Shown: positions 31,188-39,154 of the stretch, piece by piece
Layout of the letters: every line of letters begins with the position of its first letter
How positions within the stretch are numbered: the stretch's first letter is position 1
NCBI GenBank assembly: GCA_038061225.1
Contig: JBBTZT010000002.1
Coordinates: forward strand, 12,655 to 76,654
Source: Patescibacteria group bacterium
GTDB taxonomy: Bacteria; Patescibacteriota; Microgenomatia; UBA8517
Direction: 5' to 3'
Length of the DNA stretch: 64,000 nt
Translations under genes and position numbers: made by a program
Notes under the pieces: generated by a model
What the model was told of the DNA's origin: nothing
What the model saw: the letters and a program-made list of their open reading frames with translations, nothing else
Databases searched by the model: none

Positions 31188-32297
31188 ATGAAAACCACAG
31201 TTCTACAAGAAAATTTACAAAAAGCGGTCGCTCTTTCTTCTCACTTTGTTTCTTCAAAAGCACAATTACCAATATTAAGTAACATTTTACTTCAAGCAAA
31301 AAAAACTAAATTAATAATTTCTTCTACAAATCTTGAAACATCTGTATCTACTTCAATTGGATCTAAAACTGAAGAAGAAGGAGATATTGCAGTTAATGGT
31401 AAAACAATAAATGATATTGTAACAAATTTAACAAATGATTCTATTGAAATAGAATCCATGCATGAACATTTAAAATTATCTTCAGGAAGTTTTAAATCAA
31501 AAATATTAGGAACAAACTCATCAGATTTTCCAAAACTTCCAAGTATAGTAGACAAAAAGACTTTTACTTTAAAAACTAATGAGTTTATTAAATCCCTTTC
31601 TAAAGTCTTGTTTTCAGTGTCAACAGACGAAACAAGGCCTATTTTAACAGGTGTTTTGTTTGTTTCTAGAGATTTGAAGCTCTCTCTCGTTGCAACTGAC
31701 GGGTTTAGACTTTCAGAAATAAAAATAAAAAATGAAGCAAAGCTTCCAGATCTAAGAATTATAATACCAAGAGCAGTCTTAAATGAATTATCTAAAGTAG
31801 ATGAAGAAGAAAATATCGAAGTTTATTTTGACAAAGAAAATAATCAAATTGTATTTGGAATAGGAGATACCGTTTTTTCTTCTAGAATAATTGAAGGTGA
31901 ATTTCCAGATTATGAAAAAATTATACCAACCTCTTCTATATGTACTGTAAATATAGATAAAAACGAGCTTGAAAAAGCACTTAAACTTTCATCCGTTTTT
32001 GCAAGAGATTCAGGAAATATAATCAAATTAAGAATTAAGAATGAAGAATTAATAATTAATGCAGAAAGCTCGAATTCTGGTAATCAAGAAATGGGTTTAG
32101 AAATACGAACGGAGCAAGAAATTAAAACAGAAATTAATATAATGTTTAATTATAGATTTATAGAAGAATTTTTGAAAACTGTAGAAGATGATGAAATACA
32201 AATACAAATTTCAGACAATAATAAAGCTTCAAAATTTCTAGACCCTAAAAACCCCAACTTCCTCCATATAATAATGCCAATCAAAACACAAGGTTAA
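31188..32297 (+). CDS. dnaN: DNA polymerase III beta sliding clamp
   Basis: A 369-aa three-domain clamp pattern directly downstream of dnaA (MKTTVLQENLQKAV...). Confidence 0.85.
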   Translation: MKTTVLQENLQKAVALSSHFVSSKAQLPILSNILLQAKKTKLIISSTNLETSVSTSIGSKTEEEGDIAVNGKTINDIVTNLTNDSIEIESMHEHLKLSSGSFKSKILGTNSSDFPKLPSIVDKKTFTLKTNEFIKSLSKVLFSVSTDETRPILTGVLFVSRDLKLSLVATDGFRLSEIKIKNEAKLPDLRIIIPRAVLNELSKVDEEENIEVYFDKENNQIVFGIGDTVFSSRIIEGEFPDYEKIIPTSSICTVNIDKNELEKALKLSSVFARDSGNIIKLRIKNEELIINAESSNSGNQEMGLEIRTEQEIKTEINIMFNYRFIEEFLKTVEDDEIQIQISDNNKASKFLDPKNPNFLHIIMPIKTQG

Positions 32298-32887
32298 TAT
32301 TTTGGGACTTCTTTTGAAGGTTCTTTAGAGAAATCTTTTCCCCACTTTGTTATAAAATCCTCAATTGTAGTAGGTATAAAATACCAAACCTCGAAGACTG
32401 TTCCATCCTCGTGGCCAAGATATGCAATTCCATTGGAAGGATAAATATATAAATTAAACACACTACTTAATTTCTTTTCATATAACATTTCAGGAGCTAA
32501 ACCGTATATCTTTCTAATGTCATCTGTTGTTTTGTTTCCATCAATAATTTCCTCTACTATTAATTCAGCTAAACCATTTTTCGAATAGACTTTATGGTTT
32601 CTATATTGGTTTGTTGATTTGTAAGTTGAAACGTTTAATTCGCCACTTTTTGTTGATTCAAGAGGGTTGCCTAATAATTCATTAATTCTCTCAAGACTGG
32701 TTTTTCCAGGAATTATTTCATCGAAACTCGCAATTTTATTGACAGGAGAGGAGGTTGGATCTCCAACAACTGTTGAATTTTGTTTATTAAAATTAATTTT
32801 TATCACAATAAATATTAAGAAAGACAACGAAACAATAGTTAATATTATTATTTTTTTACTCTTAATCATTTCAATTATTTTATTCAT
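32294..32887 (-). CDS. Hypothetical secreted/anchored protein (197 aa). It is the last gene of the VirB4 operon.
   Basis: N-terminal TM/signal anchor and no motif recognised. It is co-directional with the upstream gene, with a 7-bp gap. Confidence 0.35.
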   Translation of the reverse strand: MNKIIEMIKSKKIIILTIVSLSFLIFIVIKINFNKQNSTVVGDPTSSPVNKIASFDEIIPGKTSLERINELLGNPLESTKSGELNVSTYKSTNQYRNHKVYSKNGLAELIVEEIIDGNKTTDDIRKIYGLAPEMLYEKKLSSVFNLYIYPSNGIAYLGHEDGTVFEVWYFIPTTIEDFITKWGKDFSKEPSKEVPKY

Positions 32888-32894
32888 TTATATA

Positions 32895-37405: not shown

Positions 37406-37436
37406 ATTTCTTAATTCTTAAATCTTAACTCTTAAA

Positions 37437-38123
37437 TCATATATCTCGTTTTACTGCTGGTGGTTCAGGATTATTTACTTCGTAATAAAGATTAACTAAT
37501 TGTTGATTATTTAATTGCTTTAATTTTAGACCAAGTCGACCAGCCTGTCTTATTAAATGATCTCTTTTTGGGAAAAGAGTGACTTTTGCTTTTTTAACAA
37601 CATAATCTTTAGGAAAAGGCAGGGGTCCCCTTTTAAGGATAGATTGGGCTGATTTAGTAACACCTAATTCAAGTTGATTAAAAGGGATAACTATGAGAAA
37701 TCTTTTTCCTAAAACAGTTTTTTTCTTGATTGATTCAGTTATAAAATGTCTGTAATCATCAGTAATTGCAGCTAGTTTTGGATTAGTTATTTTTTTACTT
37801 GCTTCGTCAAAAAATTTAATGTAGCCCGTAATATCTTTTCTTTGTGTTTTAACCATAATTTGAATTGAAAAAGATAAAGAATTGATAAGCGCGGCATATG
37901 CAGCAACCACTGCACCCTGTTCTTTTTCAGAAAGAAGCCCAAAGTTTAGTGATGAAGTTTCAAGAACAATTGCTGCTCCCCCATCTTTGTACAAAACAAC
38001 ATCATCAACAATATCTGCAATTGGAAGGGCATTTTGTGTTGTCGAAACTAAAGGTATATCAGGTGTTCCAAAATATGGAATTTTAGAAACAAAATCTTTG
38101 ATTTTTGTTTTATAGTCGTTCAT
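37437..38123 (-). CDS. Hypothetical soluble protein in the VirB4 operon (228 aa)
   Basis: No TM and no known motif. Its 4-bp overlap with the upstream membrane gene and 31-bp gap to VirB4 imply co-transcription. Confidence 0.35.
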   Translation of the reverse strand: MNDYKTKIKDFVSKIPYFGTPDIPLVSTTQNALPIADIVDDVVLYKDGGAAIVLETSSLNFGLLSEKEQGAVVAAYAALINSLSFSIQIMVKTQRKDITGYIKFFDEASKKITNPKLAAITDDYRHFITESIKKKTVLGKRFLIVIPFNQLELGVTKSAQSILKRGPLPFPKDYVVKKAKVTLFPKRDHLIRQAGRLGLKLKQLNNQQLVNLYYEVNNPEPPAVKRDI

Positions 38124-39154
38124 ATTTTAGTTCCCCTGATTGCTATTGGTGGAATCATTTCTCCTTTTGCTTCAAAAGAAACAGGTTCAAACATAAAGCC
38201 ATCTTTTTCAATGGTAATTTCATATTTACCATTAGAAAGTGGTGTAACTATTATAAAATGTCCTGCTTTATTACTTTTTAAAGCTCTAACTGGTCTACTT
38301 GATGAATCCTTAATTTCAAGTATAACTCCTTCTACAATTTTTCTGTCTTGGTCCATTACTTGACCAACAATTGTGTTTGCTGCAATAGGAGGTGATGGTG
38401 GTGCTGCATCAACTGAAAATTCAACAGAGTTAGTAGTTATTGGTTTTTCTTCAATCTTTTCACCAGTTATCTCAGTAACCTTAGCTTGCTCCGCGGAGTC
38501 TTGACGAAGTGGGGATTCTTCCACAACTATACGTGGTGCTGATTTAGTAATGACGGTTGGTATTTGTTGAGGGGTGTTTAACATGGGCGATTGGTTAAGG
38601 GTTACAGGTTTAAATGTTTCAGGTGCAGCAGCTGGTTTAGAAAAAGTTACCAGCGGTACAGTTTGTTGTGGAATTGATGTTGACGTTTGAGTTTGTTGAT
38701 TGTTTGTTTGAGGTTGGTTATTAACTGTAAACAACCCCCCAATTTTTTGTAAAAATGATTTTTCCGCCTCTTCTAATTTGGCAGTATTTTTTTCAACCAA
38801 CGACCCAGTTTGAATAGATTTTACTTCTGGCGCTGGTGCATTTTCTGTATAAAAAATAGGTGGTTTGTCTGATTTTTTCCAAGAGAATAAGGTCGGTGAA
38901 TAAATACTTCTAAAAAAAGCAATAATCCATTTTTCAAGAGGTCTTTCTTCAAAAGGCAAAAACGCCATAGTTGCACCCAACCCTGCAAAAAACAATATAA
39001 GAGGCCACTTAATTAAAGGGTGGAGTGGGGTGGAATAGAAAATTAAAGAAACAATTACACCACCCGCCACTTGGAAGAACTGTTTCAATGTCATATCTCC
39101 AACCAACTTAAATTGGTATGAGCTTATTTGTTGTGGTATTGGATGTTGTTCCAT
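38120..39154 (-). CDS. Membrane protein with an N-terminal two-TM hairpin (PrgI/VirB3-like position), a long P/Q/T-rich linker and a C-terminal beta-sandwich (carboxypeptidase-regulatory-like) domain
   Basis: TMs VAGGVIVSLIFYSTPL and PLILFFAGLGATMAFLPF. The low-complexity segment runs QPQTNNQQTQTSTSIPQQT...PPSPPIA. The C-terminal domain has IVGQVMDQDRKIVEGVILEIKD...GKYEITIEKDGF. It is the first gene of the VirB4 operon. Confidence 0.4.
   Translation of the reverse strand: MEQHPIPQQISSYQFKLVGDMTLKQFFQVAGGVIVSLIFYSTPLHPLIKWPLILFFAGLGATMAFLPFEERPLEKWIIAFFRSIYSPTLFSWKKSDKPPIFYTENAPAPEVKSIQTGSLVEKNTAKLEEAEKSFLQKIGGLFTVNNQPQTNNQQTQTSTSIPQQTVPLVTFSKPAAAPETFKPVTLNQSPMLNTPQQIPTVITKSAPRIVVEESPLRQDSAEQAKVTEITGEKIEEKPITTNSVEFSVDAAPPSPPIAANTIVGQVMDQDRKIVEGVILEIKDSSSRPVRALKSNKAGHFIIVTPLSNGKYEITIEKDGFMFEPVSFEAKGEMIPPIAIRGTKI

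What the first reader, a model, noticed from the sequence alone, without database searches (positions are those of the whole stretch)
32294..39154. Compact VirB4-centred operon with unusual partner proteins (T4SS-like system without recognisable VirD4/relaxase)
Five co-directional minus-strand genes are tightly coupled, with 4-bp overlaps and gaps of 2, 7 and 31 bp. They are:
- a two-TM membrane protein with a P/Q/T-rich linker and a carboxypeptidase-regulatory-like beta domain, in the PrgI/VirB3-like position;
- a 228-aa soluble protein;
- a VirB4/TrbE ATPase (Walker A SGAGKS);
- an 891-aa polytopic protein;
- a 197-aa secreted protein.

No VirD4 coupling protein, relaxase, VirB11 or lytic transglycosylase is visible in the window. 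T4SS-like systems of CPR bacteria are proposed to act in DNA uptake or host attachment rather than conjugation. Competence genes (comM, dprA, comFC) and a pilin array lie within 25 kb, which fits a DNA-uptake or epibiotic-attachment role.
Basis: partly seen in the sequence, partly recalled or inferred. Interest (0 to 1): 0.75.

Follow-up and report, generated by a model that had tools for sequence, protein, structure and literature searches.

The report
Patescibacterial type IV secretion core operon
This is the chromosomal, non-conjugative type IV secretion machine already described for ultra-small Patescibacteria (here a Woesebacteria genome), so the main finding is not new, but its fourth gene carries a swappable cell-wall enzyme that always changes together with the fifth gene.

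Summary
The five minus-strand genes exist exactly as described. They are PrgI/VirB3-like, TrsD-like (a split-off VirB4 N-domain), VirB4, an 891-aa membrane protein and a 197-aa anchored protein, ending 4 bp into dnaN and about 1.1 kb from the likely oriC.

This is the Patescibacteria-clade T4SS, related to monoderm MPF-FATA systems. It was published in 2023 and 2025: no relaxase or coupling protein nearby, next to dnaA/dnaN, essential in Southlakia.

The "pilin array" consists of VirB2-like T4SS pilins, part of the same machine. The link to competence genes is not conserved in relatives.

Gene 4 (891 aa) has a conserved cytoplasmic and polytopic part, then a variable ectodomain. Here the ectodomain is a Cys-rich HExxH metallopeptidase-like domain. 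In 69 positional orthologues it is mostly M23, CHAP, amidase, NlpC/P60 or M15.

The enzyme type pairs almost one-to-one with the family of gene 5, whose ectodomain here has a BLIP-like fold. The pair is reshuffled almost independently of VirB4 phylogeny. A sister strain with 99% identical VirB4 switches cassette exactly after the motif NNSAYVVPP.

This polymorphic enzyme-plus-partner cassette was not found in the searched literature. Its function is inferred.

The parts
38120..39154 (-). PrgI/VirB3-like membrane protein (344 aa). PrgI domain aa 5-84 (38903-39142). P/T/E/S/Q-rich linker aa ~95-255. CarboxypepD_reg-like beta domain aa 261-320 (38195-38374).
   Evidence: Pfam PrgI gives E 1.5e-5 on the whole protein. 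The N-terminal 110 aa alone score 29.3 bits, above the cut-off of 27, and 76 of 76 orthologues match. CarboxypepD_reg gives E 1.6e-6, below the cut-off.
37437..38123 (-). TrsD-like protein (228 aa), a separately encoded VirB4 N-terminal domain.
   Evidence: NCBIfam TrsD/TraD E 5.3e-5. It also matches positions 103-278 of the Mbov_0397 VirB4 model and positions 2-110 of the CD1110 model, upstream of where the 610-aa protein matches. It forms one continuous ORF of 830-913 aa with VirB4 in loci L059, L063, L066, L068 and L071. A precomputed weak PF26593 TraC-like hit is on record.
35573..37405 (-). VirB4 ATPase (610 aa). Walker A SGAGKS aa 267-272 (36590-36607). Walker-B-like ILIVEEAW aa 471-478 (35972-35995).
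   Evidence: NCBIfam NF045971 (VirB4-like, CD1110 family) scores 368.7 bits against a cut-off of 325. Pfam P-loop_TraG gives 1.2e-33. It is 26% identical to pCF10 PrgJ aa 238-782, E 1e-41. It is 62-91% identical in 80 Woesebacteria/Microgenomates loci.
32895..35570 (-). 891-aa membrane protein carrying a swappable ectodomain.
- aa 1-438 (34257-35570): conserved cytoplasmic helical part.
- aa 439-576 (33843-34256): Gly-rich polytopic block.
- aa 570-578 (33837-33863): junction motif NNSAYVVPP.
- aa 590-707 (33450-33803): Ig-like beta-sandwich.
- aa 708-891 (32898-33449): Cys-rich HExxH domain, with HELTHH at 33126-33143 and EAMAE at 32991-33014.
   Evidence: No Pfam or NCBIfam hit. Family alignments are A2 and A6. 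All 12 Cys lie in aa 635-871. Orthologues carry M23, CHAP, Amidase_2, NlpC/P60 or M15_4 at this position. The breakpoint with sister strain L086 is at 33838.
32294..32887 (-). 197-aa membrane-anchored partner protein. TM anchor aa 7-34, disordered linker, then a tandem alpha+beta4 (BLIP-like/DUF4309-like) ectodomain at aa ~55-197.
44044..45579 (-). 511-aa protein with a signal peptide and 6-7 TM segments. It is a conserved member of the cluster in relatives and a candidate VirB6 analogue by topology and synteny only.
   Evidence: Hydropathy is. Homologues lie upstream of PrgI on the same strand in 51 of 80 loci. No VirB6, TrbL or PrgH signal by Pfam, PDB profile or hhalign.
50250..52706 (-). 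Secreted, Cys-rich protein of about 811-818 aa, encoded directly downstream of the pilin array. It is conserved upstream of the 511-aa protein in relatives.
   Evidence: No Pfam hit. Signal/anchor at aa 22-52. Homologues occur in 25 loci just upstream of the 511-aa homologue.
52654..56574 (-). Array of eight VirB2-like T4SS pilin genes: 52654-52938, 52988-53326, 53335-53712, 53714-54085, 54073-54489, 55554-55874, 55877-56191 and 56194-56574. It is interrupted by a plus-strand Fic/MarR gene (54447-55562).
   Evidence: Pfam PF18895 T4SS_pilin is above the cut-off for five genes, just below it for two, and one gene has the same two-TM architecture without a hit. The precomputed annotation agrees.
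30952..31140 (.). Cluster of seven DnaA-box-like sites in and next to the dnaA-dnaN spacer. This is the likely oriC, about 1.1 kb from the 3' end of the operon.
   Evidence: Search for TTATCCACA with up to 1 mismatch. The window-wide count is not above chance; only the local clustering is notable. dnaA is at 29660-31030 and dnaN at 31188-32297.

Best explanation
The region is the core operon of the chromosomal, non-conjugative T4SS that is typical of Patescibacteria. Here it sits in a Candidatus Woesebacteria (class Microgenomatia) genome from groundwater.

Shown:
- A VirB4 ATPase of the monoderm (CD1110/PrgJ-like) type.
- Its N-terminal domain encoded as a separate TrsD-like gene.
- A PrgI/VirB3-like membrane partner with an added extracellular beta domain.
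- The operon sits at the replication origin between housekeeping genes.
- The window also holds eight VirB2-like pilin genes and two further conserved envelope proteins that are contiguous with the operon in relatives.

Inferred mechanism:
- PrgI and the TrsD-like protein dock the VirB4 hexamer at the membrane.
- VirB4 powers extraction and assembly of the VirB2-like pilins and/or export of a substrate towards the host bacterium on which the cell lives.
- Gene 4 anchors a cell-wall-active or surface-protein-active enzyme at the machine through its polytopic block. In this genome the enzyme is an HExxH zinc-peptidase-like domain; in relatives it is M23, CHAP, amidase, NlpC/P60 or M15.
- That enzyme plays the role that PrgK/TraG/CwlT-type hydrolases play in Gram-positive conjugation: opening peptidoglycan, of the cell itself and possibly of the host.
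- Gene 5 is the cognate extracellular partner of that enzyme (regulator, inhibitor or targeting subunit).

The system probably serves the epibiotic interaction rather than conjugation.
For: Identity of the machine:
- VirB4 scores above the curated NCBIfam cut-off, and the HerA, CedB and FtsK-type models score far below theirs.
- PrgI is above the Pfam cut-off in 76 of 76 orthologues.
- The TrsD-like protein matches the N-terminal part of VirB4 models and is fused to VirB4 in five loci.
- T4SS_pilin is confirmed for the array.

Chromosomal and core status:
- Flanking genes are dnaN, dnaA, rnpA, yidD and yidC on one side and a cytidylyltransferase on the other.
- G+C content is even across the window.
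- The same gene order recurs in 67-80 Woesebacteria, Microgenomates and Shapirobacteria loci.
- VirB4 identity exceeds DnaA and DnaN identity in 67 of 67 loci.

Agreement with published work:
- A Patescibacteria VirB4 clade nested in MPF-FATA, with TrsD, PrgI and VirB2 arrays, no relaxase, and dnaA/dnaN proximity in Microgenomatia (PMC12102498).
- In Southlakia the T4SS is essential. Its layout is dnaA, dnaN, recF, then 0004 and 0005 (PEGA), 0006 (lysozyme), 0007 (1113 aa with a C-terminal DD-peptidase fold), VirB4, 0009, PrgI. Genes 0004-0010 are all essential.

Enzyme module:
- 46 of 69 positional orthologues of gene 4 end in a recognised peptidoglycan hydrolase domain.
- All Cys of p891 lie in the ectodomain.
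- The order and sizes match pCF10 PrgI-PrgJ-PrgK-PrgL.
Against: - No VirB6, VirB8 or VirB1 family is detectable by sequence in the five genes.
- The window's own enzyme domain is not a recognised peptidoglycan hydrolase. Its only remote hit is to M34 proteases (PPEP-1, anthrax lethal factor) at E about 0.03, so it may cut proteins rather than murein.
- The AlphaFold2 model of p891 is poor (pLDDT 55.7; about 25 in the TM block), so its topology is inferred from hydropathy and the Cys distribution only.
- Absence of a coupling protein and relaxase is shown only for this 64-kb window. The 2025 survey found VirD4-like genes elsewhere in many Patescibacteria genomes.
- No experiment exists for any Microgenomatia member. 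Function is extrapolated from one Saccharimonadia species.
Confidence: 0.82

Rival explanations
1. The C-terminal domain of gene 4 plus gene 5 form a polymorphic effector-immunity cassette mounted on the T4SS. The enzyme attacks the envelope of the host bacterium (or of competitors) at the contact site. Gene 5 is a membrane-anchored inhibitor that protects the producer's own wall. Cassettes are exchanged under an arms race or during host switching.
For: - The architecture is a conserved N-terminal part followed by a variable C-terminus, with a sharp junction after NNSAYVVPP. Sister strain L086 (VirB4 99% identical, DNA 90% identical over 4.25 kb) loses all similarity at window position 33838 and carries M23 instead.
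- Enzyme type and gene-5 family pair almost one-to-one in 67 loci: HExxH 21/21, M23-B 8/8, CHAP-like 6/6, Amidase_2 3/3. The M23 loci that pair with another partner family form their own M23 subclass.
- Fitch changes on the VirB4 tree number 34-39, against 35.5 for shuffled tips.
- The gene-5 ectodomain has the fold of BLIP and of the T6SS immunity proteins BtiO and TsiN.
- Both parts are predicted to be extracytoplasmic.
Against: - Adjacency alone would make the two co-transfer, because the only conserved recombination anchors are the gene-4 trunk and dnaN.
- Two partner families are shared by different enzyme types: SEC5 with Amidase_2 and M15_4, and SEC2 with M23-B and a NAGPA-like domain. 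This does not fit specific inhibitors well.
- Many gene-5 proteins are Ig-like (Big_5 in 14, PEGA in 4), which suggests scaffolds or adhesins.
- No toxicity or neutralisation data exist, and no complex prediction could be run.
- The HExxH domain occurs almost only in this protein family (112 representatives among 1.84 billion proteins), not on other toxin scaffolds.
Confidence: 0.3
2. The system is a DNA-uptake machine (ComB- or Ced-like) that works with the nearby competence genes comM, dprA and comFC.
For: - comM (47542-49131), dprA (49470-50261) and a weak comFC-like gene (62131-62757) are in the window.
- No relaxase is present.
- The 2025 survey notes comF, recG and radA next to the T4SS in class ABY1.
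Against: - The linkage is not conserved in this lineage: comM lies within 8 kb of virB4 in 1 of 80 loci, and in relatives the pilin, 818-aa and 511-aa genes sit where comM and dprA sit here.
- The CedB and CedD models score 45 and 30 bits against cut-offs of 700 and 600.
- In Southlakia competence depends on comEC and type IV pili. The comEC deletion is viable while the T4SS is essential (PMC12857230).
Confidence: 0.08
3. The region is a decayed or cryptic integrative conjugative element whose relaxase, coupling protein and integrase lie outside the window or were lost recently.
For: - VirB4, PrgI and TrsD descend from monoderm conjugation systems.
- The gene order equals that of pCF10 PrgI-PrgL.
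Against: - The operon has the same position next to dnaN and dnaA in 67 species-level genomes.
- VirB4 is more conserved than DnaA.
- There is no integrase, no flanking repeat context and no G+C shift.
- Housekeeping genes lie on both sides.
Confidence: 0.03

Closest known systems
Patescibacteria-clade T4SS (Quinonero-Coronel et al. 2025, PMC12102498; Southlakia epibionticum SEML1_0004-0019, Wang et al. 2023, PMC10633639)
   Same: - PrgI, a TrsD-like protein and VirB4 in a row.
- A large protein with a C-terminal peptidase domain directly after virB4, followed by small exported beta-domain proteins.
- Convergent with dnaN at the origin.
- A VirB2-like pilin array.
- No relaxase or coupling protein nearby.
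   Different: - This is a Microgenomatia version. The enzyme is an unnamed HExxH domain rather than a DD-peptidase plus separate lysozyme.
- There is no NTF2-like (VirB8-like) gene and no recognisable VirB6.
- The pilin block is separated from the core by comM, dprA and toxin-antitoxin genes.
- The cassette-like co-variation of enzyme domain and partner gene is not described in those papers, as far as the text searches show.
pCF10 PrgI-PrgJ-PrgK-PrgL (Enterococcus faecalis, MPF-FATA conjugation)
   Same: - Same order and similar sizes: VirB3-like, VirB4 (796 aa against 228+610), an 871-aa membrane-anchored multidomain wall hydrolase against 891 aa, and a 208-aa bitopic protein against 197 aa.
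- VirB4 is homologous (26% identity, E 1e-41).
   Different: - pCF10 has the VirD4-like PcfC, a relaxase, PrgH and adhesins.
- There is no sequence similarity between p891 and PrgK or between p197 and PrgL.
- p197 is BLIP-like, not NTF2/VirB8-like.
- pCF10 has no pilins.
Polymorphic toxin systems (CdiA-CT/CdiI, Rhs, LXG) and bacteria-killing X-T4SS effector-immunity pairs (own knowledge)
   Same: - A conserved trunk with a short junction motif and a replaceable C-terminal enzyme.
- The next gene co-varies with the enzyme.
- Swaps occur between near-identical strains.
- Peptidoglycan hydrolase domains are among the payloads.
   Different: - The trunk is an integral membrane component of the operon, not a secreted filament or a VirD4-recognised effector.
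- The partner is a membrane-anchored, often Ig-like protein.
- Toxicity and immunity are untested.
- Two partner families serve two enzyme types each.
M34 gluzincins (PPEP-1/Zmp1 of Clostridioides difficile, anthrax lethal factor)
   Same: HExxH followed about 40 residues later by an ExxAE motif. A profile of the domain aligns both motifs to PPEP-1.
   Different: The match is weak (E about 0.03) and there is no Pfam hit at family level. The domain has four invariant Cys and always sits at the end of the T4SS membrane protein.

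Membership tests
Type IV secretion system, Patescibacteria clade (MPF-FATA-derived) | VirB4-family ATPase with intact nucleotide-binding motifs | tested here: met
   NF045971 scores 368.7 bits against a cut-off of 325. Walker A SGAGKS and a hhhhEE Walker-B-like motif are present. 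E 1e-41 to PrgJ.
Type IV secretion system, Patescibacteria clade (MPF-FATA-derived) | VirB3/PrgI-like small membrane protein next to virB4 | tested here: met
   PF12666 scores 29.3 bits against a cut-off of 27 on the N-terminal 110 aa. 76 of 76 orthologues match.
Type IV secretion system, Patescibacteria clade (MPF-FATA-derived) | TrsD-like protein (VirB4 N-terminal homologue) adjacent to virB4 | tested here: met
   It matches the N-terminal positions of two VirB4 models and TrsD/TraD at E 5e-5, below the curated cut-offs. It is fused with VirB4 into one ORF in 5 loci.
Type IV secretion system, Patescibacteria clade (MPF-FATA-derived) | VirB4 falls inside the monophyletic Patescibacteria clade | not tested
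   No tree with reference T4SS classes was built. The only indirect evidence is 62-91% identity to 80 Woesebacteria/Microgenomates loci.
Type IV secretion system, Patescibacteria clade (MPF-FATA-derived) | VirB2-like pilin genes, often in arrays | tested here: met
   Eight genes lie at 52654-56574. PF18895 is above the cut-off for five of them.
Type IV secretion system, Patescibacteria clade (MPF-FATA-derived) | Chromosomal position near dnaA/dnaN, without a relaxase nearby | tested here: met
   The operon ends 4 bp inside dnaN. No relaxase, T4CP or integrase family appears in the window annotation. The rest of the genome could not be searched.
Type IV secretion system, Patescibacteria clade (MPF-FATA-derived) | VirB6-like polytopic channel protein | tested here: inconclusive
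   There is no TrbL/VirB6/PrgH signal for p891 or the 511-aa protein. Both are polytopic and syntenic.
Type IV secretion system, Patescibacteria clade (MPF-FATA-derived) | VirB8-like (NTF2-fold) bitopic protein | tested here: not met
Conjugative element (plasmid or ICE) | Relaxase, coupling protein (VirD4/TcpA) and, for an ICE, an integrase linked to the T4SS | tested here: not met
   None is found in the 64-kb window. Housekeeping genes flank the operon, and the position is conserved in 67 genomes.
Non-T4SS ATPases (HerA, FtsK, Ced) | Best and above-threshold match to those families | tested here: not met
   HerA scores 13.8 bits (cut-off 970), CedB 45.4 (cut-off 700) and CedD 30 (cut-off 600).
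Polymorphic toxin-immunity system | Conserved trunk, junction motif and replaceable C-terminal enzyme domain | tested here: met
   Alignments A2 and A3. The breakpoint after NNSAYVVPP in a strain with 99% identical VirB4.
Polymorphic toxin-immunity system | The downstream gene co-varies specifically with the C-terminal domain | tested here: met
   The contingency table is almost diagonal over 67 loci. Two singleton exceptions share a partner family with another enzyme type. Physical linkage is an alternative cause.
Polymorphic toxin-immunity system | The C-terminal domain is toxic and is neutralised by the cognate partner | not testable with these tools
   This needs expression or binding experiments, or a complex prediction.
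M34-type zinc metallopeptidase | HExxH plus a downstream Glu ligand, and significant similarity to the family | tested here: inconclusive
   H810, E811, H814, E853 and E857 are invariant. The PDB profile hit to PPEP-1 has E 0.027. The domain model has low confidence.

The most novel reading that the evidence does not exclude
In Microgenomatia the essential T4SS carries, on an integral membrane subunit, a rapidly exchanged enzyme warhead. This can be M23, CHAP, amidase, M15 or a new HExxH peptidase, together with a cognate membrane-anchored partner. In effect this is a contact-dependent, polymorphic cell-envelope-breaching module with self-protection or targeting. It would tune which host cell wall or surface the epibiont can open, and so would be a host-range determinant of ultra-small bacteria.
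Probability: 0.3. Interest if true: 0.7.

Novelty: new member of a known kind. Interest (0 to 1): 0.4.

Why it matters
The operon itself adds one more Woesebacteria example to a system already surveyed in about 2,400 Patescibacteria genomes, so by itself it changes little.

What could matter is the finer anatomy in Microgenomatia, the class for which the 2025 survey found VirB6 and VirB1 homologues scarce or unlinked:

- The gene after virB4 is a conserved membrane trunk with an exchangeable wall or protein hydrolase.
- The next gene always changes with it, even between strains from the same aquifer system (Hainich H41 and H51) whose VirB4 is 99% identical.

If this cassette sets which host envelope can be opened, it offers a sequence-readable handle on host specificity of uncultivated epibionts. 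It also gives a concrete pair of proteins to test biochemically.

VirB4 is more conserved than DnaA and DnaN in all 67 comparisons. This supports the view that the machine is a core, essential organelle in this class too.

Tried and rejected
- **VirB8 hypothesis for the 197-aa protein.** It occupies the position of PrgL and Tn916 Orf13. Rejected: the model is BLIP/DUF4309-like and hhalign to PrgL finds nothing.
- **p891 as the VirB6 homologue.** No support from Pfam, NCBIfam, hhalign to Tn916 Orf15 or a Foldseek search. In Southlakia the VirB6-like gene is a different one, upstream of PrgI. p891 is better seen as the counterpart of SEML1_0007 and PrgK.
- **The 511-aa polytopic protein as VirB6.** No sequence support. 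It is kept only as a candidate.
- **Full-length AlphaFold2 model of p891.** Too poor to use: pLDDT 55.7, with only generic Ig-like hits.
- **Profile search for more p891 homologues.** The word-indexed database returned only 9-10 proteins, so the alignment for the model stayed shallow.
- **Neighbour of the M23 sister-strain gene.** The contig ends at the gene, so its gene 5 was not seen.
- **Promoter and terminator scan.** Nothing above shuffled expectation.
- **DnaA-box count over the whole window.** Not above chance; only the local cluster is notable.
- **Mobile-element reading.** Rejected on synteny and composition.

Full report
**1. Observation**

The five minus-strand ORFs are at the stated coordinates:

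| Gene | Coordinates | Length |
|---|---|---|
| 1 | 38120-39154 | 344 aa |
| 2 | 37437-38123 | 228 aa |
| 3 | 35573-37405 | 610 aa |
| 4 | 32895-35570 | 891 aa |
| 5 | 32294-32887 | 197 aa |

- The junctions are a 4-bp overlap, then gaps of 31, 2 and 7 bp.
- The last gene overlaps the 3' end of the convergent dnaN (31188-32297) by 4 bp.
- dnaA is at 29660-31030, and rnpA, yidD and yidC follow on the other strand.
- Upstream lies a cytidylyltransferase-like gene (39189-39623).
- G+C content is even across the window, 0.27-0.38.
- The same sequence occurs in groundwater metagenome assemblies from the Hainich wells.

**2. Organism and conservation**

- A scan of species-representative genomes with the ATPase returned 80 loci with 62-91% identity. 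Those with informative titles are Candidatus Woesebacteria, Microgenomates or Shapirobacteria.
- The order PrgI-like, 228-aa protein, ATPase, a large gene, a smaller gene, then convergent dnaN and dnaA is kept in all loci long enough to show it.
- Median identities to the window proteins:

| Protein | Median identity |
|---|---|
| VirB4 | 76% |
| TrsD-like | 62% |
| DnaA | 56% |
| PrgI-like | 46% |
| DnaN | 46% |
| Gene 4 | 30% |
| Gene 5 | 34% (detectable in only 21 loci) |

- VirB4 is more conserved than both DnaA and DnaN in 67 of 67 loci. This is a core gene, not cargo of a mobile element.

**3. Genes 1-3**

- **ATPase.** It passes the curated NCBIfam threshold for VirB4-like ATPases of the CD1110 family (368.7 against 325 bits). 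It scores far below threshold for HerA, CedB and CedD. It aligns to pCF10 PrgJ residues 238-782 at 26% identity, E 1e-41. Walker A (SGAGKS, aa 267-272) and a Walker-B-like ILIVEEAW are intact.
- **228-aa protein.** It matches TrsD/TraD (E 5e-5). It also matches the part of two VirB4 models that lies N-terminal of where the 610-aa protein matches. In five related loci the two genes are one ORF of 830-913 aa. The pair is therefore a split VirB4.
- **344-aa protein.** It is a PrgI/VirB3-family protein: its N-terminus scores 29.3 bits against a cut-off of 27, and 76 of 76 orthologues match. It is extended by a P/T/E/S/Q-rich linker and a CarboxypepD_reg-like beta domain.

**4. Rest of the machine in the window**

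- The "pilin array" at 52654-56574 comprises eight VirB2-like T4SS pilins. PF18895 is above threshold for five of them.
- A secreted, Cys-rich protein of about 815 aa lies directly downstream of the array (50250-52706).
- A 511-aa protein with a signal peptide and 6-7 TM segments lies at 44044-45579.
- In relatives these two proteins lie immediately upstream of PrgI on the same strand, in 25 and 51 of 80 loci respectively.
- The ancestral cluster is therefore contiguous. In this genome comM, yraN, dprA, a PemK toxin and an HTH gene lie between the parts. comM is near virB4 in only 1 of 80 loci, so the competence linkage is incidental in this lineage.
- No coupling protein, relaxase, VirB11 or integrase is seen anywhere in the window.

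**5. What is already known**

- Quinonero-Coronel et al. 2025 (PMC12102498) found VirB4 in 2,417 of 3,035 Patescibacteria genomes, mostly in one clade nested in MPF-FATA. They reported TrsD, PrgI/VirB3, VirB6 and VirB2 arrays nearby, almost no relaxases, and dnaA/dnaN proximity in Paceibacteria and Microgenomatia.
- Wang et al. 2023 (PMC10633639) showed by Tn-seq that the Southlakia T4SS is essential for epibiotic growth and lacks recognisable coupling and relaxase proteins.
- Their supplementary tables give this layout:
  - dnaA, dnaN, recF
  - 0004 (prealbumin-like)
  - 0005 (exported PEGA protein)
  - 0006 (two lysozyme-like domains plus a cysteine protease)
  - 0007 (1113 aa with a C-terminal DD-peptidase fold)
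  - 0008 (VirB4), 0009, 0010 (PrgI), 0011
  - 0012 (NTF2-like), 0013 (VirB6-like)
  - pilins 0014-0019
- Genes 0004-0010 are essential.
- The window's operon is the Microgenomatia counterpart of 0005/0004 through 0010.
- A 2025 review (PMC12857230) notes that the comEC deletion is viable in Southlakia, so T4SS essentiality does not run through ComEC.

**6. Genes 4 and 5**

*Gene 4 anatomy*
- Neither gene has a Pfam or NCBIfam hit.
- Gene 4 has a charged helical N-terminal part (aa 1-438).
- A Gly-rich hydrophobic block follows (aa 439-576). It ends in a very conserved stretch, IATPVIVTLLVLPPLVAFI(I/M)LVINNSAYVVPP.
- Next comes an Ig-like beta-sandwich (aa 590-707; only generic fold hits).
- The last part is a 180-aa Cys-rich domain.

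*The HExxH domain*
- H810, E811, H814, E853, E857 and four Cys are invariant.
- All 12 Cys of the protein lie in aa 635-871, which fits an extracytoplasmic location.
- The domain has 112 representatives among 1.84 billion proteins. Nearly all sit at the C-terminus of 600-1100-aa proteins.
- Its profile weakly matches the M34 peptidases PPEP-1/Zmp1 and anthrax lethal factor across HExxH and the ExxAE motif (E about 0.03).

*Positional orthologues*
- In 69 positional orthologues the last 330 aa carry:

| Domain | Loci |
|---|---|
| Peptidase_M23 | 33 |
| CHAP | 7 |
| DUF7507 | 6 |
| Amidase_2 | 3 |
| NlpC/P60 | 2 |
| Peptidase_M15_4 | 1 |

- Gene 4 is thus a conserved membrane trunk with an exchangeable, mostly peptidoglycan-hydrolysing head.
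- It occupies the position of pCF10 PrgK (871 aa), and gene 5 that of PrgL (208 aa). No sequence similarity to either was found.

*Gene 5*
- Its AlphaFold2 model has pLDDT 80.6. It shows a TM anchor, a disordered linker and two alpha+beta4 repeats.

**7. Cassette behaviour**

- Clustering the last 170 aa of gene 4 and, separately, the gene-5 proteins gives an almost diagonal table:

| Gene-4 C-terminal type | Loci | Gene-5 family |
|---|---|---|
| HExxH | 21 | p197 family in 21/21 |
| M23 type A | 25 | 330-360-aa family in 20 |
| M23 type A, distinct subclass | (within the 25) | second family in 4 |
| M23 type B | 8 | 150-aa family in 8/8 |
| CHAP-like | 6 | 215-aa family in 6/6 |
| Amidase_2 | 3 | 3/3 |
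| Further type | 2 | 2/2 |

- Two singletons share a partner family with another enzyme type.
- On a VirB4 neighbour-joining tree the minimum number of changes is 34 for the enzyme type and 39 for the partner and for the pair. Shuffled tips give 35.5. The cassette is therefore reshuffled almost independently of the machine's phylogeny while the pairing persists.
- A sister strain from another Hainich well has 99% identical VirB4 and 90% identical DNA from window 38088 to 33838. Similarity then stops, exactly after NNSAYVVPP, and an M23 domain follows.
- Gene-5 families are all N-terminally anchored extracellular beta-rich proteins: Big_5 in 14, PEGA in 4, BamE or DUF4309 in single members.

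**8. Interpretation**

*Shown:* the identity of the machine, its chromosomal core status, the split VirB4, the pilin array, the modular enzyme head and the co-variation.

*Inferred:*
- PrgI and TrsD dock VirB4.
- VirB4 drives pilin assembly or export.
- The head acts on peptidoglycan or surface proteins at the machine, as PrgK-type hydrolases do.
- Gene 5 binds, regulates or targets the head.

*The effector-immunity reading:*
- It is attractive because of the junction motif, strain-level swapping and the BLIP-like fold.
- It is not demonstrated. The two genes are adjacent and flanked by the only conserved recombination anchors, so they would co-transfer anyway.
- Two partner families serve two enzyme types each.
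- Many partners look like Ig-like scaffolds.
- I give this reading about 0.3.

*Other readings:* DNA uptake (about 0.08) and a decayed conjugative element (about 0.03) are poorly supported.

**9. Verdict**

- Text searches found no description of the enzyme-partner cassette. It is a modestly novel lead worth a complex prediction and a simple toxicity and neutralisation test.

Noticed in passing
window 35573-38123; loci L059, L063, L066, L068, L071: The TrsD-like gene and virB4 are separate here (31-bp gap), and in most relatives they overlap by 4 bp. In five related genomes they form a single ORF of 830-913 aa. This is a natural fission/fusion series for VirB4.
   Followed up: partly
window 29660-37405 and 67 related loci: VirB4 is more conserved than DnaA and DnaN in every one of 67 comparisons (median identities 76%, 56% and 46%).
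   Followed up: yes
window 30952-31140 and 29609-29617: Seven DnaA-box-like sites lie within 190 bp in and next to the dnaA-dnaN spacer, plus a perfect box upstream of dnaA. This is the likely oriC. The T4SS operon lies just to its right and is transcribed towards it, so it would be head-on to the rightward fork. The cumulative GC skew minimum lies at about 36-38 kb rather than at 31 kb.
   Followed up: partly
window 54447-55562 (+): A Fic/DOC-domain protein with a C-terminal MarR-type HTH is inserted, on the opposite strand, in the middle of the VirB2-like pilin array. The same arrangement is seen in a second assembly (L085).
   Followed up: no
window 41923-44028 (+): A 701-aa soluble protein with no family hit lies between the 511-aa polytopic protein and the PrgI operon. 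Homologues occupy the same position in 9 related loci.
   Followed up: partly
window 45618-46124 (-), about 56598-57096 (+): Toxin-antitoxin-type genes (a PemK-like toxin, and a HicB-like/HicA pair) sit at the edges of the segments that separate the T4SS parts in this genome.
   Followed up: no
loci L003, L004, L011, L012 and about 30 others: Many species-representative records that clearly belong to Microgenomatia (same synteny, VirB4 65-91% identical) are titled 'uncultured Gammaproteobacteria bacterium', 'Alphaproteobacteria bacterium' or 'Nevskiaceae bacterium'. The record titles are unreliable for these MAGs.
   Followed up: no
   Followed up: partly
loci L052 and L056: These are the two exceptions to the one-enzyme-one-partner rule. 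A NAGPA-like head pairs with the partner family otherwise seen with M23 type B. An M15_4 head pairs with the partner family otherwise seen with Amidase_2.
   Followed up: no
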